Below, piece after piece: positions 9,076 to 59,661 of a DNA stretch of 64,000 nt (within the stretch, counting starts at the first letter, position 1; each line of letters begins with the position of its first letter). The stretch covers positions 10,755 to 74,754 of the forward strand of contig CACZTP010000001.1 in the NCBI GenBank assembly GCA_902784055.1. The letters run 5' to 3'. The translations under genes were made by a program, and so were the position numbers. The notes under the pieces were generated by a model. The model saw only the letters and a list, made by a program, of their open reading frames with translations, had not been told where the DNA came from and did not search any database. The DNA is from an uncultured Pseudomonadota bacterium (lineage in GTDB: Bacteria > Pseudomonadota > Alphaproteobacteria > RUG11792).

Positions 9076-9831
9076 ATGCGTATTGCTACTTGGAACGTTA
9101 ATTCAATTCGCGTACGTATTCAACAAGTACTAAACTTCTTAAAAAATTATGACGTCGATATTTTAATGATGCAGGAAATAAAATGTACTAATAAAATGTT
9201 TCCATCTAACATATTTGAGAATAATGGTTTCAATTGTGCTGTATATGGTCAAAAAACTTATAACGGTGTTGCTATTGTTTCAAAATATATAATTGAAGAT
9301 GTAAATACTGGTAACAGTATATTTGAAAAAGATCAATCGGCTAGATATATTGACGCTTTCATAAATGGATTTCGTATTGTCTGTGTTTACGTACCAAATG
9401 GTCAAGAAGTTAATACGCAATATTATTTTTATAAACTTGAATTTTTAAACAAATTAATTAAACATTTATCTAATGTAGCAAATGTGGAAGATGCAATAAT
9501 AGGTGGCGACTTTAATATTGCTCGTTCAGATTTAGACGTATGGAACGTTAAGTTATGGCGTGGTCGTAATTGTTGTAGTAATGCTGAGCGTGAAAAATTT
9601 CAACGCTTATTGGATATCGGGTTTAAAGATGTGTTACGAGAGAATTCGGATGACCGTGAACTGTTCACATGGTGGGATTATAGGCATGATGGGTTTAAAT
9701 CAAATCACGGTTTACGACTCGATTATTTGCTAACATCAAAAAATATAAATGTCTTAAGTCGTCAGCGGTGTATTAAAATGCGGTCATTGCCACAGCCTTC
9801 GGATCATGCGCCTATACTAATTGAAATATAA
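9076..9831 (+). CDS. xth: Exodeoxyribonuclease III
   Basis: MRIATWNVNSIR, QE.K, GDFN.A, RLDY.L and SDHAP motifs of the EEP/ExoIII family. Confidence 0.95.
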   Translation: MRIATWNVNSIRVRIQQVLNFLKNYDVDILMMQEIKCTNKMFPSNIFENNGFNCAVYGQKTYNGVAIVSKYIIEDVNTGNSIFEKDQSARYIDAFINGFRIVCVYVPNGQEVNTQYYFYKLEFLNKLIKHLSNVANVEDAIIGGDFNIARSDLDVWNVKLWRGRNCCSNAEREKFQRLLDIGFKDVLRENSDDRELFTWWDYRHDGFKSNHGLRLDYLLTSKNINVLSRQRCIKMRSLPQPSDHAPILIEI

Positions 9832-10694
9832 TGTATTTTTTTATAAAAGTCTGTTTGTTTTATTTTTCATTAATTGGTATTGCCTCTTACTTATCGTTAT
9901 TTGAACGCAAACTAATTGGGCGTATTCAATGGCGTTATGGTCCTAGATATTGTGGAAAATTCGGATTATTACAGCCGATTGCCGACGGATTAAAATTATT
10001 CTTCAAACAAAATTCATTATCGGGGCACTCTGTTGTTTCGATCTTTTCTTGTGGTTTACTCCTGTTTTCATCTTTATTTCAGTTTGCTTTTTTACCTTTA
10101 GGTCAATTATCCCTATTATCTTCTCAGTATAGTCTCTTATATATAATAATTTGCCATACGCTAATTAACTTTGCCGAACTTTTAATTGGAGTTACATCCA
10201 AATCTAAATACGGAATAATTGGTGGTATTCGTTCCGTCTATCAAAAGTTTGGTAGCGACCCACTTCTTTTTTTAATACTGGTTTGTTTGTGCTCTCGTTA
10301 CGACTCCTTTGATATTGGATATGTTTCTATACACCATGATTTTTTTGTATGGCTATTAATTCCTGTATTATTTTCTGTAGCTCTTATTAATACAAGTCAC
10401 ATTCCCTTTGATTTTCTAGAGTGTGAAAGCGATTTGGTCGCAGGTGCTTATACAGAATACGGAGGTATCTTATTTGGTGTTATCTATTTATCTGATTATC
10501 TTAACGTTTTGTTTAATGCCTTGTTTATTTCTTCACTATTTTTACAAAAATTTTGGCTCGGAATTGGATCTGTTTTAATACTTTCAACAGTAATTCTAAT
10601 CCGAGCCATCATGCCACGATGTTTACAAATTCAAATGATCAAACTATCGTGGCGCACTATGTTTGTAATATCAATCTTTACAACAAAGTTGTAA
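9831..10694 (+). CDS. nuoH: Complex I subunit H (287 aa)
   Basis: ERKLIGRIQWRYGP....GLLQPIADGLKLFFK, SKSKYGIIGGIRS, PFDFLECESDLVAGAYTEYGG, LIRAIMPR. Collinear with NuoH/ND1. TAATG overlap with xth. Confidence 0.85.
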   Translation: MYFFIKVCLFYFSLIGIASYLSLFERKLIGRIQWRYGPRYCGKFGLLQPIADGLKLFFKQNSLSGHSVVSIFSCGLLLFSSLFQFAFLPLGQLSLLSSQYSLLYIIICHTLINFAELLIGVTSKSKYGIIGGIRSVYQKFGSDPLLFLILVCLCSRYDSFDIGYVSIHHDFFVWLLIPVLFSVALINTSHIPFDFLECESDLVAGAYTEYGGILFGVIYLSDYLNVLFNALFISSLFLQKFWLGIGSVLILSTVILIRAIMPRCLQIQMIKLSWRTMFVISIFTTKL

Positions 10695-10723: not shown

Positions 10724-13114
10724 TTATTCTGATTTATTATCAAACCACTTTTCGTTAAATTGTTTGTAAAACAAAGTATTAATGATAACGTAAAGCTGTC
10801 TTCGAGCTAAGTCTACGTTCTGTTTTACATCTTCTCCTAAAAGCTTAGAATCAGTCGCCACATTAAAATTTTCAAAATTAACGCCGTCATACTCTTTGAA
10901 TCCAATAAACTTTATTGATGAAAATGTATCGGAGGTTTTCTGAGTTTGATAAGAAAACACTGGTATAAGAACTTTTTTTAAAAGATTGCAGTCTAAAAAC
11001 ACGTCTTTTGTGTTATATTTTTTGACTCTTTTATTGTTTAACTTATCTTTTTCAAAATCTCCGGTTAAGATCTGAATTTTTCCTTGAGAATTAACGTATT
11101 TTAGTATATAGTACAACTGAACTCTCGCGAAAGCTTTTCGATCTAATTGTTTAAATATGCTATCAAAGTTCACTATATTATCATTTTCGTCAACACTATA
11201 TTTGTTGAAGATTTCGAGGTTCTCAAATTCACGGATCGACAAAAGCGCCGCAGTCTTACATATTGAATCCAATCCAGTTCGGGGATCTTTAATCAAAATT
11301 GATTTTTCATCTAGATGACTAAATCCGGAGGTTGCGCCTTTTGACTGGATTAGACAAGTCATATTTCCAGAACCTTTAGTACTTTGAACACAGACAGCTT
11401 CATACGCATTCCAAATGTTTTTTACTGAACCTTCTTTTGTGTAATCGATTTTTACACCTTTTCCTACACCTTTATTTCGTAATTCAGGTAATACGACGTT
11501 ATTGGAGTTGACAGTATTTTTTGTCTGATCGTTTTTGAGATTAGGCTGAGCCTCCCGTTTTCCGTTTTTCATGCGCAATCTAGCTGCTGCAATTAGATCT
11601 TGCATATTGGCCGAGGCGATCTGAACCTTAGGCTCTTTTTTACCGTTATTTTGCGAACCAGGATTCGAAGATACGACTCTTTTTGCACCCTCAGTTTTGG
11701 TGTTATTCGTATTTTTCGGATCCTCGTCTTTCTTTTTTGCATCAGCAATTTTATCAATGTTTTTCAGAACCTCAACCCTATCCGCCTCTGTTATTATACT
11801 TTTTACGGGTCCTGGAATATTGGCTGGTGGTGGCGGAGGCGGAGGAAATCCTTTACTATTCCCCTCTTCTACTTTAAGTTTACCCGGTACAGTATCACTA
11901 TTACTATTACTTTCAGAAACATTGTTGTCGAGAGCAGATACACTATTTGCTATTCCTTTATCTTTAAATGCTATATCGTTGTTTTTGTTATTTTTTATTG
12001 ATTTTCCCTCACCCTCTTTATCTGAGACTTGACTAAATTTTGAATCTAGTAATTTCTTGTTATTCGGACGCTGTGTGCTTTTTCTCGATGTGTAAATAGC
12101 CGATAATGTTGGAACAACAGCGTTTTCGCAGACTTTTTCAAAGATGTCTTCTTTTTCAATATCCGGTTTATTATGAATTGGGTCTACTTTTTGACTGTAT
12201 TTCTTTGTTGAAAACTTATGTATATTTAATTTCTTTTTTTTTAAATAATTTGATAATGCGTTGTTACAAGCTTGTTGAACGATTTTATTTGAAATTCTCG
12301 CACTATTGAGCGCGGCATTCGATTGACCGTTACCGGGTAGACTGTTATCCATTTCTTTAACAGTTGTGTTTATTAATTCTGTTTTGAGATCAGGCATGTT
12401 ATCGTTGGGTAAGTCAACTCTTGTGCTCATTGTTTGATTGAAGGTTTTTTGCTGTTCGAGTATCTTGGGTAAAACAAAATTACTTAAAATTTGGCTTTTT
12501 ACGAAGCGTAGATTCCAATCGTTGAAGAAATATCTTTCAGCAATGCTTTTATCTGAATCAAGTACTTGCCGTTTGTCAGGAAAAACTTCATTAAAGCGAT
12601 TCATGACGATATCGCCCCAACTTCTATTGTTATTATTCGTCAACGCATTCCAAACATAATCAACAGATTTTTTGTATATCGTTGTTAAATCGGGGGTAAA
12701 AAGCGCTAGTCTTGAAAAATTCGAAATAAATTCGTTTTTGAATATATTGACACTTTCAGTACCAATCCAAGCGTTTAATAAGCCCATTATACGACGAAAA
12801 TCGTTGTTCCTCCCCTCCTTGGTGTATTCATCATATGTGGCATTTAGAGATTGAAGAAAGTCGTTATCATGGTTTTCACCTAGAATAGAAACAGCAACAG
12901 CAGTTGCCACATGTTTTGTTTCATCTTTTGCAATGTAACGATTCGCTGGTTCACGCCCTATAAAAAGCTCAGATTCTTTAATTTGATCTTCTAGGGAAAG
13001 CCCCTTGTTTTTGATAGTAGTTTCCATTCCGTAAACGTCAAATTGTGGACAAACAACCATCAGCGATCCGAGCGCGGTTGTTAGTATTTTTAAAAACTTT
13101 TTCATAACACTCAT
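10724..13114 (-). CDS. Secreted 796-aa protein of unknown function with FPPPPPPP proline-rich motif
   Basis: Long uninterrupted ORF with an N-terminal hydrophobic signal-like segment (LTTALGSLMVVCPQ). The central region is low-complexity and K/N/S-rich. FPPPPPPPANIPGP is encoded at 11825-11848. No family recognised. Confidence 0.75.
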   Translation of the reverse strand: MSVMKKFLKILTTALGSLMVVCPQFDVYGMETTIKNKGLSLEDQIKESELFIGREPANRYIAKDETKHVATAVAVSILGENHDNDFLQSLNATYDEYTKEGRNNDFRRIMGLLNAWIGTESVNIFKNEFISNFSRLALFTPDLTTIYKKSVDYVWNALTNNNNRSWGDIVMNRFNEVFPDKRQVLDSDKSIAERYFFNDWNLRFVKSQILSNFVLPKILEQQKTFNQTMSTRVDLPNDNMPDLKTELINTTVKEMDNSLPGNGQSNAALNSARISNKIVQQACNNALSNYLKKKKLNIHKFSTKKYSQKVDPIHNKPDIEKEDIFEKVCENAVVPTLSAIYTSRKSTQRPNNKKLLDSKFSQVSDKEGEGKSIKNNKNNDIAFKDKGIANSVSALDNNVSESNSNSDTVPGKLKVEEGNSKGFPPPPPPPANIPGPVKSIITEADRVEVLKNIDKIADAKKKDEDPKNTNNTKTEGAKRVVSSNPGSQNNGKKEPKVQIASANMQDLIAAARLRMKNGKREAQPNLKNDQTKNTVNSNNVVLPELRNKGVGKGVKIDYTKEGSVKNIWNAYEAVCVQSTKGSGNMTCLIQSKGATSGFSHLDEKSILIKDPRTGLDSICKTAALLSIREFENLEIFNKYSVDENDNIVNFDSIFKQLDRKAFARVQLYYILKYVNSQGKIQILTGDFEKDKLNNKRVKKYNTKDVFLDCNLLKKVLIPVFSYQTQKTSDTFSSIKFIGFKEYDGVNFENFNVATDSKLLGEDVKQNVDLARRQLYVIINTLFYKQFNEKWFDNKSE

Positions 13115-46946: not shown

Positions 46947-48944
46947 TCATTTGCTAGAATTATTAAGTTTGTATTGTTCTTTAATTTTCATTCCTGGTTC
47001 AACAATCTTCTTAGGATAGAATTTTTGAGCATCGAAATAACCCTTTGGCCGATCTGGGTATATATTATCCCACCAATACGGAACCCAAATTTTACACTTT
47101 TTCAGACATGAATCTAGCCAGGTTTTATTTTCAATTGAAAAATCCGCAAACAATTTATTAACCTTTGTTGGACTTACTGCATATAAAGTACAACGCCTTG
47201 CGAATCTTATAAAATCCGACTTCGGAATGTTCCGTTCCCACCCCCATGATGATGATAAACCAAATTTTATACTATGATAAGTTGATCCGAGAATTGGTAA
47301 GGCTTTTAAGAAATCGATCCCGAACTTTTGACAATCAATTGCAAATTTAACAAAAGACGTAAATTTATCTTCGCAACAAAGTTCCACCGCATTAAACCAA
47401 CCTCTGTACTTCACATGTAATAAATTTTTTTCATTGTCATTAAAGGTTCTATTGTATAAAAGCTCAACAAGTAGTGCTTGTATTCCAAGATCCGTTTCAG
47501 AGCCGATAACACCTTCGGAGGCGTTCCACTTTTCTGGCGATATCTTCTTTAAAAAATTTTCTGGATCTACAGAACATCTCTGAAGCACTGGAGCAAATTT
47601 TATGGCAACGTCAAACGGCATGTTTATTTTGTATTTACCAGATAAATCAATTAGTTTTACTAACAGATCAATAGTTTCAAAAACAACATCGCCTTTAACT
47701 ATGTCTTCATTTAATTCGAAACATTTTTCTAATAACGCATTTAAAGAATAAATATCAAAATCTTGGGGATTAACAAGTTTTGTCGCGCTAATTTTGGACA
47801 TATATTGATCAAGAACTGTGTTAAAAGATGCTCTCGTTAACTTTTCTGTCTGCGTACAAAACTCAAGATACTGTAGCACAAGCCTAAGATATTCGAAATT
47901 GTAAACATCTTTTGTAAAAATGCGTAATGATTTTTTTGCTTGTACGGAATTAAATTTTAAAAAAAATTGCTTAAAATCACTATCACATTCCCCGAACTTC
48001 TTGAGTATAAGAGCGCAACTGTTAGAAGAAGCTGTATATCCATTTGCAAACAAAAGCTGTCCTTTTTTAAACGGATCTTTAGTCTCTTTTAACTGTTGTA
48101 TGGTTTGAGGACCATGTTCCAATGATGTATTTGTGGCATAAAGATAATCTATATCTTTACAGATAATCCTTTCTGCACATTTTCTTAATAGGTCATTGAC
48201 CCAATCTTCGTATCGGTCAACTTCTGCTGTTACAGACTCATCATATCCAAAAGATATTACATTGAGCTGTGTAAGGTAACAATACCAGTCGTTTTTTAAA
48301 CAATTGGTAAAAGCCTCTTCTCCAGAAAATTTTTCACACGATAATTGCCATGCATTAACATCGTTATTTCCATAAACAGAAAGACTATATTCAGACATTT
48401 TTTCTTTTATATCGGAAATTACAGATTGAAACAATTTTTCTGTAAGATCTGTATGACTACTGTTTTTTTGATAATTTTCATCATGAAAACGCTTATATAA
48501 ACCCAAGTAACACATCCATGTGGTTATAGCATTGCCAACATTTTTTAATGCATTTTCTGAATTTTCACGAAGATTTTGCCAAATATTGTTTATAAACAAA
48601 TTTGCCGTTTTATCATACTTCGTATTACGTTCTTCATCGGTAGTTGAGTTTATATCTTTTGCAATGACTATTAATTCTTTTAGGGCATTAATTGATGAAC
48701 TCCATTCGTCTTTGGTCGCCCAAAAAAGTTTTCCTTGCTCTTTTTTTAGACGATCGTTTATGTGTGATATTGTTTGCTGAAATCTTTCTTCAACAACGTT
48801 TACAATATTCCGTTCAAACGTGGAACTTTGTAAGTTACTAACTTCGTCTGTACTTACAACTCGTCCATCACTCGCGTGTAGCTCGATATCCGTTGAAATA
48901 ACAATTCCAAACAATGCCAACGATAAAAGTAGTGTTTTATTCAT
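46947..48944 (-). CDS. Secreted 665-aa protein of unknown function (paralog-family member)
   Basis: Signal peptide MNKTLLLSLALFGIVIS. AAGGTG RBS. Shares blocks with the decayed copy at 58740-59661. Confidence 0.75.
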   Translation of the reverse strand: MNKTLLLSLALFGIVISTDIELHASDGRVVSTDEVSNLQSSTFERNIVNVVEERFQQTISHINDRLKKEQGKLFWATKDEWSSSINALKELIVIAKDINSTTDEERNTKYDKTANLFINNIWQNLRENSENALKNVGNAITTWMCYLGLYKRFHDENYQKNSSHTDLTEKLFQSVISDIKEKMSEYSLSVYGNNDVNAWQLSCEKFSGEEAFTNCLKNDWYCYLTQLNVISFGYDESVTAEVDRYEDWVNDLLRKCAERIICKDIDYLYATNTSLEHGPQTIQQLKETKDPFKKGQLLFANGYTASSNSCALILKKFGECDSDFKQFFLKFNSVQAKKSLRIFTKDVYNFEYLRLVLQYLEFCTQTEKLTRASFNTVLDQYMSKISATKLVNPQDFDIYSLNALLEKCFELNEDIVKGDVVFETIDLLVKLIDLSGKYKINMPFDVAIKFAPVLQRCSVDPENFLKKISPEKWNASEGVIGSETDLGIQALLVELLYNRTFNDNEKNLLHVKYRGWFNAVELCCEDKFTSFVKFAIDCQKFGIDFLKALPILGSTYHSIKFGLSSSWGWERNIPKSDFIRFARRCTLYAVSPTKVNKLFADFSIENKTWLDSCLKKCKIWVPYWWDNIYPDRPKGYFDAQKFYPKKIVEPGMKIKEQYKLNNSSK

Positions 48945-58435: not shown

Positions 58436-58739
58436 TTTTATTTCAGAATTATGGACAGGTATAAAATGTATATTTCGACAACCTGTTACTCTAAGTAAGA
58501 CTAACATTTTAGAACTTTCTCAAAAACGATCCTTTAATCGATTGCGTGTTGACCCTAGCAAATGTATAAAGTGTAAAAATTGCATGTATATATGCCCTAA
58601 CAAATGTATTCAAATTCTAGACACATCGATACAGAATGGTGAACACTTTAGATGGGATGAAACAAAATGCGCAAATTGCAGATTATGTGAAAAATCATGC
58701 CCAAAAAAAGCAATTAGAGTGAAATTAATACAATCATGA
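58425..58739 (+). CDS. nuoI: 2x[4Fe-4S] ferredoxin-like protein, probable short NuoI
   Basis: Two CxxCxxCxxxCP motifs (CIKCKNCMYICP, CANCRLCEKSCP), spaced as in NuoI. NuoI-type N-terminal lead G.K..F..PVT. 104 aa against about 160-180. Overlaps ruvX by 11 nt. Confidence 0.6.
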   Translation: MGINFISELWTGIKCIFRQPVTLSKTNILELSQKRSFNRLRVDPSKCIKCKNCMYICPNKCIQILDTSIQNGEHFRWDETKCANCRLCEKSCPKKAIRVKLIQS

Positions 58740-59661
58740 ACAAAACTGAAACAATCTTTTTGTATTAAACTATTACCTAACCATTTCTCAACCAAATTTG
58801 AAACTGGTCGCCTTTCTTTTAAGATTTCTGCGCAATTAACTTTTGTCGATCGACTACCACTTTCGTGTACATTATACATTCCTAAATTAATAACAGTGGA
58901 TAATACCGTATCGGGATTAATAGCCATATACCATTCAGAACCATTCGCTATTACGGAAAATTGATACAAATAGCACTTCCAATCGTGAAATAGACATTGC
59001 TTTAATTTTTTTTCATCTCCGTCGAATATTTCCAATAAACGAGGGTTTATTTTTTCTTCATAGCACCAAACGTCTTCGTCTCCATCATGGACATAATCTG
59101 CATAAAACGCAAGAGTTTTTTAGACCTTGTTGAACAATGTACCAGGGGCATCGAGATAATCTGTAGAAGCATACTTAAGTATAAACTTCTCCCTCAATGT
59201 GGTATATATCATTAATGTATTCATATATCCGAACGCCTTTTTACAAGCATTTGATTTTAATCGTTCATCAATTTGTTAATGATTTATCAATAACAAGATT
59301 TTCTAGTAATTCAGAAATCCGAGAGTACAGAATAGGAAATACTTTATCTTTGCCTACATTTTTAGATGAATTAATAGCTAAAACGCACAATTTTTTTAAA
59401 TTTTCAATAGACGAAGACCATTCATTGCCGGTTGTGATAGCCTCATAAGCCCAATAGTTTTTACCATATTTATTTGGTGCAAGTTTTATAAACTTATCAA
59501 CATTATAATTTACAGTTTTGTATAGATAGATATTTATATTAACATTAAAAAAGATCGTTTTTATCTTGTAATTCTGTCGCATGCACACAGCTTCGTTCAA
59601 GAATTACGTTAGAAAACGCTGATAGACATAACAAAACTAAAAATACTCTTTTATTAAACAT
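58740..59661 (-). pseudogene. Decayed, C-terminally truncated paralog of the 665-aa secreted protein gene
   Basis: ATG 59661 gives MFNKRVFLVLLCLSAFS.. then a stop after 37 codons. Homology continues in other frames: NEWSSSIENLKKL vs DEWSSSINALKEL, and FHDWKCYLYQFSVIANG vs KNDWYCYLTQLNVISFG. At least three frame or stop disruptions. Only about the first 260 residues are represented. Confidence 0.65.

What the first reader, a model, noticed from the sequence alone, without database searches (positions are those of the whole stretch)
10724..13114. 796-aa secreted protein carrying an FPPPPPPP motif (host cytoskeleton mimicry candidate)
The protein has a signal-like N-terminus, and its middle is long, disordered and K/N/S-rich. 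At 11825-11848 it encodes G-F-P-P-P-P-P-P-P-A-N-I-P-G-P. FPPPP is the established core ligand for Ena/VASP EVH1 domains (as in Listeria ActA, zyxin and vinculin), and poly-Pro runs recruit profilin (as in Rickettsia RickA and Sca2). The motif needs a GC-rich codon run (ccaccaccgcctccgcctcc) in an AT-rich genome, so it is unlikely to be compositional noise. The folded-looking C-terminal 230 or so residues are unassigned.
Basis: partly seen in the sequence, partly recalled or inferred. Interest (0 to 1): 0.6.

Follow-up and report, generated by a model that had tools for sequence, protein, structure and literature searches.

The report
Hypervariable secreted polyproline protein of endosymbiont

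Summary
The 796-aa ORF (10724-13114, minus strand) and its G-F-P7-A-N-I-P-G-P motif are real. A P7 run is expected about 8e-6 times per proteome by chance.

No homologue exists outside one genus. This holds for Pfam, NCBIfam, 5.8 billion proteins, a 1.84-billion-protein profile search and 41 family genomes.

**Main new result.** A second strain has flanking genes 98.3-98.7% identical (ω 0.10-0.23). Its allele of this gene is only 58% identical in protein, with ω = 1.8-2.5 overall and 3.4-8.9 in residues 231-417. That is strong diversifying selection.

**What stays conserved.** The signal peptide, blocks of the N- and C-terminal domains, and the proline run plus the following helix (ADRxEVLKN..KIADAKKKDE).

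**EVH1 reading fails.** The defining Phe is Val in the other allele and Ile in a sister species. A profilin/FH1-like tract is compatible. The "WH2-like" LK[NK][IV] is not recognised by the Pfam WH2 model.

**Context.** The genus has an ATP/ADP translocase, T6SS sheath genes and a secretin. On another contig it encodes a signal-peptide protein with polyPro, a WH2-like helix, a central helix and an acidic tail ending in Trp/Phe (WASP-VCA-like).

Best reading: a host-exposed effector candidate. An actin role is plausible but unproven.

The parts
10724..13114 (-). Gene X: 796-aa orphan exported protein (P0001)
   Evidence: The ORF is intact. The identical protein occurs on 5 independent assembly contigs. 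It sits in a conserved slot, murJ-murC-[X]-nuoH-xth, in three lineages.
13028..13114 (-). Sec-type signal peptide (aa 1-29; the likely true start is M4, MKKFLK)
   Evidence: It has an n-region KK, a 12-13 aa h-region and a V-Y-G|M site. It is identical in the second allele except for one synonymous change and the start position. Over aa 1-45, dN is 0.010. Paralogs and orthologs have similar signals ending ..Y-G/..Y-S.
12425..13027 (-). N-terminal all-helical domain (aa ~30-230) with motifs RRIMGLLNAWIG (12761-12796) and YFFNDWNLRFVKSQIL (12485-12532)
   Evidence: It is 32% identical to the G002-lineage ortholog. hhalign against the P0003 / C1:488-2905 / G001 group gives probability 76.8% and E 2e-5, with both motifs aligned. 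The AF2 model has pLDDT 59.5 and pTM 0.62 and is all helices. There is no structural neighbour in the PDB.
11864..12424 (-). Hypervariable K/N/S-rich disordered linker (aa 231-417)
   Evidence: Between the two alleles dN is 0.41-0.63 and dS 0.07-0.13, so ω is 3.4-8.9 by four methods. In windows over aa 294-370, pS is 0.02-0.10 and pN 0.38-0.51.
11807..11848 (-). Poly-proline tract with flank: F423-P7-A-N-I-P-G-P436
   Evidence: Sequence. P0002 has GVPPPPPP--NIPKP. The G002 lineage has GPNIPPPP. The Phe is not conserved; the Pro run and NIP are.
11720..11791 (-). Conserved helix island TEADRVEVLKNIDKIADAKKKDED (aa 442-465), a candidate short linear motif (WH2-like LK[NK][IV])
   Evidence: This is the best-conserved stretch of the disordered centre: over aa 444-473, pS is 0.00 and pN 0.11. 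It is nearly identical at the nucleotide level between alleles. The G002-lineage DNA aligns as RVEE / LKKVNK across its frame break. AF2 predicts a helix at 443-460 at low confidence. The Pfam WH2 model does not recognise it.
11552..11608 (-). Second amphipathic, basic helix NMQDLIAAARLRMKNGKRE (aa 503-521)
   Evidence: AF2 predicts a helix at 505-512 at low confidence. It is only loosely conserved: P0002 has VKDQLAAKFAQLKGERKD. Its function is unknown.
10727..11479 (-). Orphan C-terminal domain (aa 546-796), ending IINTLFYKQFNEKWFD
   Evidence: It contains conserved blocks (KIDYTKE.SVKN.W, GSGNMT, FARVQLYYILKYVN, NDNIVNFD) between alleles. Only the last helix is recognisable in the G002-lineage ortholog. 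No homologues were found. AF2 was not confident here.
46947..48944 (-). Paralog P0003 (665 aa, signal peptide) sharing the N-terminal domain family
   Evidence: Its motifs NVGNAITTWMCY and CLKNDWYCYLTQLNVI align with those of gene X.

Best explanation
Gene X encodes a Sec-exported, host-exposed interaction protein (effector or surface factor). The organism is an obligate energy-parasitic, Holosporales-like alphaproteobacterium that lives in the rumen, most likely inside a eukaryotic cell such as a protist.

The protein is modular:
1. A cleavable signal peptide.
2. A helical N-terminal domain shared with a small family of paralogous exported proteins. I infer this is a common export, anchoring or targeting module.
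3. A long disordered linker.
4. An orphan C-terminal domain.

Almost the whole protein is being remodelled by diversifying selection between strains of one species, which is the signature of a molecular arms race at a host interface. Inside the disordered centre, a short module resists this turnover: a run of 6-7 prolines preceded by G plus an aliphatic or aromatic residue and followed by NIP.P, then an amphipathic helix ending in LK[NK][IV].K.

I infer that this module is a eukaryote-type short linear motif. The most likely mechanism is an FH1-like profilin(-actin) docking tract, next to a helix that contacts actin or another host partner. That would let the protein concentrate host actin-assembly components at the bacterial surface, alongside the WASP-VCA-like protein encoded elsewhere in the genome.

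Shown:
- The gene is real.
- It has an export-type N-terminus.
- It is restricted to one genus.
- ω is well above 1.
- The conserved islands exist.
- The genome context is that of an intracellular energy parasite.

Inferred:
- Exposure to host cytosol.
- Profilin or actin binding.
For: - **Real, exported-looking gene:**
- **Restriction to genus g1:** only P0002 and P0004 were found among 5.8 billion proteins and 1.84 billion representatives. None of the other 38 family genomes has it.
- **Diversifying selection:**
  - Flanking murC and nuoH are 98.3% and 98.7% identical in nucleotides (dS 0.03-0.06, ω 0.10-0.23). Gene X is 78% identical in nucleotides and 58% in protein.
  - Gene X has dN 0.28-0.33, dS 0.13-0.16 and ω 1.8-2.5 by NG86, LWL85, YN00 and ML.
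  - Codon positions 1/2/3 differ by 27/23/17%.
  - Only 34 of 453 same-residue codons carry a synonymous change.
  - Fisher p is 9e-6.
- **Conserved polyPro and helix island amid that turnover:**. It is collinear with NIPPPP in an ortholog at murC dS of about 1.5.
- **polyPro goes with export:** all three long polyPro ORFs of the genome have signal or anchor sequences.
- **Intracellular, host-dependent lifestyle:** TLC ATP/ADP translocase at 629-633 bits in all three genus genomes. T6SS VipA/VipB and a secretin lipoprotein lie on the same contig. The T6SS is the conserved candidate host-interaction apparatus of Holosporineae (PMC11909080).
- **Actin-manipulation context:** the C3 protein and its orthologs or alleles in G001, G002 and P0007 all carry polyPro, a helix plus LK[KAN]x, FLQNALS.AI..R, and an acidic tail ending in W or F. 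N-WASP/WASL CA peptides from Arp2/3 complexes are among the top PDB profile hits, aligned on that tail. It is the only one of 802 ORFs with such an ending.
- **Shared N-domain family:**
Against: - **No actin- or profilin-binding element identified:** the Pfam WH2 model gives no hit in this protein, either by hmmscan (E up to 10) or by a six-frame genome search.
- **PDB searches negative:** sequence and profile searches with the island find no WH2-actin chains.
- **Weak hydrophobic face:** the face of the putative helix is weak in allele P0002 (DVKTDADRTEV).
- **Cross-lineage similarity not significant alone:** the similarity of the island between lineages gives BLASTP E of 1.1-2.6.
- **No shown route across the outer membrane:** a Sec signal only takes the protein to the periplasm. 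The secretin type was not determined, and T6SS substrates normally lack signal peptides.
- **Host, bacterial location and protein exposure are all unknown.**
- **Only two full-length alleles exist,** so site-wise selection could not be tested.
- **Structure predictions uninformative:** pLDDT 28.7 for the whole protein and 59.5 for the N-domain.
- **Poly-Pro may be only a spacer:** poly-Pro tracts also serve as rigid spacers in envelope proteins.
Confidence: 0.4

Rival explanations
1. It is a variable surface or secreted antigen-like protein with no cytoskeletal role. In this reading the poly-Pro run is a rigid hinge or spacer between the N-terminal family domain and the C-terminal domain. The diversifying selection comes from host recognition, or from adhesion to a polymorphic host receptor.
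For: - ω of 1.8-2.5 is typical of exposed antigens and adhesins.
- No actin-binding domain was detected.
- The modular family with a shared N-domain and variable C-parts resembles surface-protein families.
- The Phe of FPPPP is not conserved.
Against: - A mere spacer would not need the adjacent NIP.P and ADRxEVLKN..KIADAKKKDE island to be the most conserved stretch of the centre.
- The two other polyPro proteins of the genome place the tract upstream of helix-LKKx motifs. In one case a WASP-like C-A tail follows.
- Poly-Pro persists in the otherwise unalignable G002-lineage centre.
Confidence: 0.35
2. This is the first reader's model: an ActA/zyxin-type FPPPP ligand that recruits host Ena/VASP through its EVH1 domain.
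For: The allele in the window does read G-F-P-P-P-P, a formal match to the FPPPP core.
Against: - The Phe is Val in the other allele of the same species and Ile in the sister lineage.
- The flanks are not acidic, and there is a single copy against four in ActA.
- If the host is a rumen ciliate, Ena/VASP is, to my knowledge, not present in alveolates. This last point rests on established knowledge and was not tested here.
Confidence: 0.07
3. It is a bacterial envelope protein, either periplasm-spanning or peptidoglycan- or outer-membrane-associated. In this reading the Pro-rich segment spans the periplasm as in TonB-like proteins, and there is no host target.
For: The protein has a Sec signal, a Pro-rich rigid segment and a basic low-complexity region.
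Against: - No TonB_C, OmpA, LysM, SPOR or other envelope domain was found.
- Housekeeping envelope proteins are not genus-restricted orphans and do not show ω above 1.
- The N-terminus lacks a stable membrane anchor.
Confidence: 0.08
4. The gene is decaying or non-functional, and the high non-synonymous divergence reflects relaxed constraint or a local hypermutation mechanism such as a diversity-generating retroelement.
For: - The G002-lineage ortholog is split into two frames.
- The contigs of G001 and G002 both break inside the gene.
- The gene contains an A9 run.
Against: - ω is significantly above 1, not about 1.
- Two 790-aa frames stay open at 22% nucleotide divergence in a 34% GC genome.
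- The identical allele occurs in 5 assemblies.
- There is no template repeat and no reverse transcriptase in the genome.
- Variation spans 2.3 kb rather than a ~100-bp variable region.
Confidence: 0.04

Closest known systems
Formin FH1 / Ena-VASP proline-rich regions and their bacterial mimics (Vibrio VopL/VopF and Burkholderia BimA proline-rich plus WH2 arrays; review PMC9569871)
   Same: It has a G/aliphatic-preceded run of 6-7 prolines in a disordered region. A short amphipathic helix ending in an LKKV-like tetrapeptide follows closely. The protein is exported by a host-associated bacterium.
   Different: There is no sequence homology. It has a single tract and a single candidate helix rather than arrays. 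The helix is not recognised by the Pfam WH2 model. There is no dimerisation or FH2-like domain. No binding has been shown.
Listeria ActA / zyxin / vinculin FPPPP EVH1 ligands
   Same: The window allele contains the literal FPPPP core, and the protein has a signal peptide.
   Different: The Phe is not conserved (Val, Ile). There are no acidic flanks and only a single copy. There is no ActA-like Arp2/3-activating N-terminus and no C-terminal membrane anchor.
Rickettsia RickA, Wolbachia wBm0076 and eukaryotic WASP/N-WASP VCA
   Same: The same genome, on contig C3 outside the window, has a protein with polyPro, a WH2-like helix, a central helix and an acidic Trp tail. Gene X shares with it the polyPro plus helix-LK[NK]x arrangement and the signal peptide.
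   Different: Gene X itself has no central helix plus acidic Trp tail. Its post-motif region is basic and its C-terminus is a folded orphan domain. It is therefore not an Arp2/3 activator of the VCA type.
Holospora obtusa stage-specific periplasmic proteins (89-kDa, 63-kDa) released during invasion, and actin-based trafficking of Holospora in Paramecium (Sabaneyeva 2009, cited in PMC11909080)
   Same: These are orphan, lineage-specific, Sec-exported proteins of a Holosporales-type symbiont, implicated in host actin or nuclear interactions. They have little homology to anything else.
   Different: No sequence relationship could be tested because those proteins were not retrieved. This organism keeps a T6SS, which Holospora lacks. 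The host is unknown.

Membership tests
Class-I EVH1 ligand (ActA/zyxin FPPPP) | Aromatic or Leu residue (F>L/W/Y) immediately before PPPP, conserved in orthologs | tested here: not met
   It is F423 in P0001, V in P0002, and I (NIPPPP) in the G002 lineage.
Class-I EVH1 ligand (ActA/zyxin FPPPP) | Acidic residues flanking the core; usually several copies | tested here: not met
   The flanks are NSKG- and -ANIPGPVK, and there is one copy.
Class-I EVH1 ligand (ActA/zyxin FPPPP) | The host encodes an Ena/VASP EVH1 protein | not testable with these tools
Profilin-binding poly-L-proline tract (FH1-like) | A run of about five or more consecutive prolines in a disordered region, typically preceded by G or an aliphatic residue | tested here: met
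   The tracts are GFP7, GVP6 and NIP4. The surrounding region is 36% K/N/S and predicted coil.
Profilin-binding poly-L-proline tract (FH1-like) | Actual binding of profilin | not testable with these tools
   This needs a binding assay or a complex prediction.
WH2 domain (Pfam PF02205) | A match to the family model | tested here: not met
   hmmscan gave no hit at E up to 10, on the whole protein and on excised peptides. The six-frame search of the three genus genomes with PF02205 gave no hit in this gene. The only hit, elsewhere, is at control level.
WH2 domain (Pfam PF02205) | An amphipathic helix with 2-3 hydrophobic positions, followed after a short linker by LKKV/LKKT (PMC9569871, Fig. 3 legend) | tested here: inconclusive
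   LKNI, LKNV and LKKV are kept in three lineages. The helix face is II..A..V.V in P0001 but V....A....V in P0002. PDB searches find no WH2 chains.
WASP-family VCA nucleation-promoting factor (RickA-like) | A central amphipathic helix with conserved Arg, followed by an acidic tail with Trp | tested here: not met
   In gene X, residues 503-545 are basic and the C-terminus is ..FNEKWFDNKSE. By contrast, the feature is present in the C3 protein and its three relatives.
Sec-dependent exported protein | An N-terminal n-h-c signal peptide with a (-3,-1) cleavage site | tested here: met
   By inspection and hydropathy: MKKFLK / ILTTALGSLMVV / ..V-Y-G|M. There are no transmembrane-grade windows. No dedicated predictor was available.
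Autotransporter (Rickettsia Sca2-like) | A C-terminal beta-barrel translocator domain | tested here: not met
   There is no Pfam autotransporter hit. The C-terminal region is predicted largely helical or coil, and the protein ends ..DNKSE.
Diversity-generating retroelement target | A nearby reverse transcriptase and a template repeat matching a ~100-bp variable region | tested here: not met
   There is no RVT_1 in the genome. blastn of the gene against the genome gives no repeat above chance. The variation spans the whole gene.
Lineage-specific exported-protein family sharing the N-terminal domain (P0003, C1:488-2905, G001 slot gene) | A signal peptide plus a helical domain with the ..LLN.W.. 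and ..[NH]DW.[CLV][YR][FL][VT].. motifs | tested here: met
   hhalign gives probability 76.8% and E 2e-5 over 107 columns, with both motifs aligned.

The most novel reading that the evidence does not exclude
Gene X is one part of a previously undescribed actin toolkit of a Holosporales-like rumen endosymbiont. The toolkit would consist of three Sec-exported polyproline proteins:
- Gene X itself.
- A WASP-VCA-like Arp2/3 activator.
- A membrane-anchored P11 protein.

Together they would dock profilin-actin and nucleate filaments at the bacterial surface. Gene X would be locked in an arms race with a host factor, giving ω of about 2 within one species, while its profilin/actin-docking motif is held fixed.
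Probability: 0.22. Interest if true: 0.75.

Novelty: new variant of a known kind. Interest (0 to 1): 0.55.

Why it matters
Actin hijacking by intracellular bacteria is understood almost entirely from a few animal pathogens. For the Holosporales-type symbionts of protists, actin-based trafficking has been seen by microscopy, but no bacterial factor is known (PMC11909080).

This locus gives a concrete, testable candidate in an uncultured rumen lineage. It also gives an unusually clean natural experiment. Two strains have near-identical housekeeping genes, yet the alleles of this gene differ at 42% of residues with ω above 1. That pinpoints the few segments the bacterium cannot afford to change: the signal peptide, the polyPro-plus-helix module and some domain blocks.

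If the module binds profilin or actin, it is a new, sequence-unrelated solution to a known problem. If it does not, the protein is still a marker of a fast host-symbiont conflict in the rumen ecosystem.

Tried and rejected
**Domain and homology searches**
- Pfam and NCBIfam on the whole protein and on excised peptides gave nothing.
- PDB sequence and profile searches with the polyPro island found no WH2 or actin-complex chains.
- A six-frame search with PF02205 found no hit in gene X, in the C3 protein or in the C5 protein.

**Searches for more alleles**
- Genome contigs and two JGI metagenome scans gave nothing.

**Structure**
- Full-length AF2 was useless, with pLDDT 28.7.
- The N-domain model is moderate (pLDDT 59.5) and has no Foldseek neighbour: best E 0.39, TM below 0.3.
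- The C-terminal domain was not modelled separately.

**Explanations rejected**
- A DGR or hypermutation origin of the variability.
- Autotransporter and TonB-like readings, for lack of domains.
- A T4SS route, since there is no VirB4.

**Other**
- The C5 P11 protein has no homologue, and its G002 copy is decayed, so its textbook-looking FNSIADELANIFKNGKAKLQSV could not be tested for conservation.
- An ELM-style WH2 regular expression recalled from memory was considered but not used as evidence.
Full report
**1. The observation**

The minus-strand ORF 10724-13114 is open for 796 codons. Residues 422-436 read G-F-P-P-P-P-P-P-P-A-N-I-P-G-P. FPPPPPPP is nt 11825-11848, encoded by ttt cct ccg cct ccg cca cca cca.

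Proline is 3.2% of residues in ORFs of 150 aa or more in this genome. A P7 run is therefore expected about 8e-6 times per proteome. Only three long ORFs in the 751-kb assembly have a run of five or more prolines.

The N-terminus has the layout of a Sec signal peptide. It has a basic n-region, a 12-13 residue hydrophobic core and a V-Y-G site, and the protein has no transmembrane-grade segment. The centre (231-545) is 36% K/N/S and predicted coil.

**2. The organism**

- The window is from a 751-kb, 28-contig, 93.6%-complete MAG.
- Contigs carrying this exact protein come from cattle-rumen metagenome assemblies.
- A relative at 61% MurC identity is the rumen MAG RUG11792, "uncultured proteobacterium".

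All three genomes of the genus encode an ATP/ADP translocase at 629-633 bits. They also encode T6SS sheath proteins VipA/VipB and a secretin lipoprotein. They have no VirB4.

A nucleotide translocase plus a T6SS in a genome of about 0.75 Mb matches what a recent review describes for Holosporineae. That review regards the T6SS as the most credible host-interaction apparatus. It also notes that gut-derived members may live in gut protists (PMC11909080). An obligate host-cell-dependent lifestyle is thus well supported. The host is unknown.

**3. Distribution**

- The protein has no Pfam or NCBIfam domain.
- Among 5.8 billion proteins the only relative is P0002, at 792 aa and 55-58% identity.
- A profile search of 1.84 billion representatives adds only P0004, the N-terminal part of a sister-species ortholog.
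- Six-frame searches of 41 genomes of the family find it only in the genus.
- In all lineages the gene occupies the same slot, murJ-murC-[X]-nuoH-xth.

**4. The main new result: diversifying selection**

The contig carrying P0002 (L003) belongs to a strain of the same species.

| Gene | nt identity | dS | dN | ω |
|---|---|---|---|---|
| murC | 98.3% | 0.056 | 0.007 | 0.10-0.13 |
| nuoH | 98.7% | 0.036 | 0.006 | 0.17-0.23 |
| gene X | 78% (58% protein) | 0.13-0.16 | 0.28-0.33 | 1.8-2.5 |

The gene X values hold for NG86, LWL85, YN00 and ML.

- Codon positions 1, 2 and 3 differ by 27%, 23% and 17%.
- Of 453 codons that encode the same residue, only 34 carry a synonymous change.
- The excess of non-synonymous change is significant, with Fisher p 9e-6.
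- In the linker (231-417) ω is 3.4-8.9.

This is not a diversity-generating retroelement. There is no reverse transcriptase, no template repeat, and the variation spans 2.3 kb. It is not decay either. Both frames are intact, and the identical allele recurs in five assemblies.

Such a pattern is what one expects of a protein at a contested host interface. I take it as indirect support for exposure.

**5. What resists the turnover**

Against this background the following are conserved:
- The signal peptide, with dN 0.01.
- N-domain blocks: HVATAVAVSILG, NDFRRIMGLLNAWIG and YFF.DWNLRFV.
- C-domain blocks.
- Within the disordered centre, the segment G-x-P6-7-NIP.PVK...ADRxEVLKN..KIADAKKKDE. Residues 444-473 have pS 0.00 and pN 0.11.

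The sister-species ortholog is in L014, where murC dS is about 1.5. Its centre is otherwise unalignable, but it has GPNIPPPP at a collinear position. At the DNA level it reads cgt gtg gaa gaa / ctg aaa aaa gtt aac aaa, which aligns with RVEV LKNIDK of the window gene.

That ortholog is split into two overlapping frames exactly there. The assemblies of G001 and G002 both break inside the gene. I analysed the two pieces separately and did not join them.

**6. What the motif is and is not**

*EVH1 ligand.* The Phe that defines an EVH1 ligand is Val in P0002 and Ile in the sister lineage. The flanks are not acidic, and there is one copy. The ActA/zyxin reading therefore fails its own conservation test.

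*Profilin tract.* A G/aliphatic-preceded run of 6-7 prolines is the format of FH1-type profilin tracts. This reading is compatible but untested.

*WH2.* The following helix ends in LK[NK][IV], resembling the helix-LKKV layout of WH2 motifs (PMC9569871). However:
- The Pfam WH2 model does not recognise it, in hmmscan or in a six-frame genome search.
- PDB searches find no WH2-actin chains.
- The hydrophobic face is weak in P0002.

WH2 membership is not established.

**7. Context that raises the prior for an actin role**

The other two polyPro ORFs also start with signal or anchor sequences.

*The C3 protein.* It lies at G000:C3:11320-14769, is 1149 aa and is outside the window. Its relatives are in G002 (29% identity), in G001, and a second allele P0007 (72% identity). 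All four carry, in order:
1. A coiled coil.
2. P5-P12.
3. A helix ending LKKF, LKKV, LKAV or LKNR.
4. FLQNALS.AI..R.
5. An acidic tail ending DDDWDN, DDDWAD, DDDDWD or DDDDDF.

These features are shown. A PDB profile search with this tail puts N-WASP/WASL CA peptides from Arp2/3 complexes among its top hits, at E 0.14-0.7 and aligned on the C-A segment. It is the only one of 802 ORFs with such an ending. This is a credible RickA/WASP-type nucleation-promoting mimic, although its V element also escapes the Pfam model.

*The C5 protein.* It is 396 aa, with an anchor, a P11 run and FNSIADELANIFKNGKAKLQSV. It is an orphan.

Earlier notes of this scan report similar VCA tails in other uncultured alphaproteobacteria and in Wolbachia. 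Gene X itself lacks a C-A tail.

**8. Architecture**

The N-terminal ~200 residues are all-helical. The AF2 model has pLDDT 59.5 and pTM 0.62, with no PDB neighbour. They are related to the N-termini of other exported proteins: P0003 in the window, C1:488-2905, and the G001 slot gene. hhalign gives probability 76.8% and E 2e-5. This suggests a shared export or anchoring module with variable payloads. The C-terminal domain remains an orphan.

**9. Verdict**

Gene X is a real, genus-restricted, exported protein evolving under strong diversifying selection in an energy-parasitic rumen endosymbiont.

Its interpretation is partly right: host-interaction candidate, and a non-random, conserved proline run. 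It is partly wrong: not an FPPPP/EVH1 ligand.

The most likely mechanism is that a conserved polyPro-plus-helix short linear motif docks host profilin/actin-type partners while the rest of the protein diversifies. I put this at about 0.4. The main rival, at 0.35, is a variable surface protein in which the proline run is only a hinge.

Noticed in passing
G000 contig C3:11320-14769 (+), outside the window; L006 5001-8447; orthologs L024 1498-5013 (-), L026 ..1743 (+); allele P0007: A 1149-aa signal-peptide protein has, in order, a coiled coil, polyPro (P5-P12), a WH2-like helix (ISMEDELKTVKLKKF; ISMADAIKNVRLKKV in the second allele), a central helix FLQNALSEAIKRRRQDLH, and an acidic tail DEGDDDWDN*. 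It looks like a WASP/RickA-type Arp2/3 activator mimic. N-WASP CA peptides are among the top PDB profile hits (E 0.14-0.7), but the Pfam WH2 model does not hit. It is restricted to the genus, and the second allele is only 72% identical.
   Followed up: partly
G000 contig C5:20826-22016 (-), outside the window; L005 5001-6188: A 396-aa orphan has an N-terminal membrane anchor, a P11 run, and about 35 residues later FNSIADELANIFKNGKAKLQSV, which reads like a WASP-type WH2. It has no homologues in 5.8 billion proteins. The G002 counterpart is riddled with stops.
   Followed up: partly
L014 4974-7794 (G002-lineage locus); G002:C30 end; G001:C15 end (L012): The sister-species ortholog of gene X is called as two overlapping ORFs (550 + 397 aa). 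Homology to the window gene switches frame just after NIPPPP, between RVEE and LKKVNK. The G002 and G001 assemblies both end inside this gene. This may be a real pseudogene, strain heterogeneity or an assembly error.
   Followed up: partly
G000 C1:77124-80934, i.e. 2.4-6.2 kb beyond the window's right end: This stretch holds a secretin lipoprotein (Secretin + Secretin_N_2), an OmpH-like chaperone, T6SS VipA and VipB, and then an HtrA-like protease. A phage-portal gene (a GTA or prophage remnant?) lies at C1:83835-84992. The secretin type (T2SS, T4P or Tad) was not determined.
   Followed up: partly
G000 C13:1946-3421 (-), outside the window: An ATP/ADP translocase (TLC, 633 bits) is present in all three genomes of the genus. 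It marks energy parasitism on a host cell.
   Followed up: yes
window 46947-48944 (-); G000 C1:488-2905 (-); C8:35211-35423 (+, at contig end); window ~58600-59660: A small family of signal-peptide proteins shares the N-terminal helical domain of gene X (motifs ..W(M/L)(C/V)Y.. and [NH]DW.CYL.Q..VI) with unrelated C-terminal parts. One member is a frameshifted remnant.
   Followed up: partly
window 12234-12242: There is a T9 run on the plus strand (A9 on the coding strand, encoding KKKK) inside the hypervariable linker of gene X. It is a possible slippage site. The second allele has AAACAAAGAT at this position.
   Followed up: no
window 9831-10694 (+): The NuoH-like gene next to gene X is short, at 287 aa (272 aa in the G002 lineage).
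   Followed up: no
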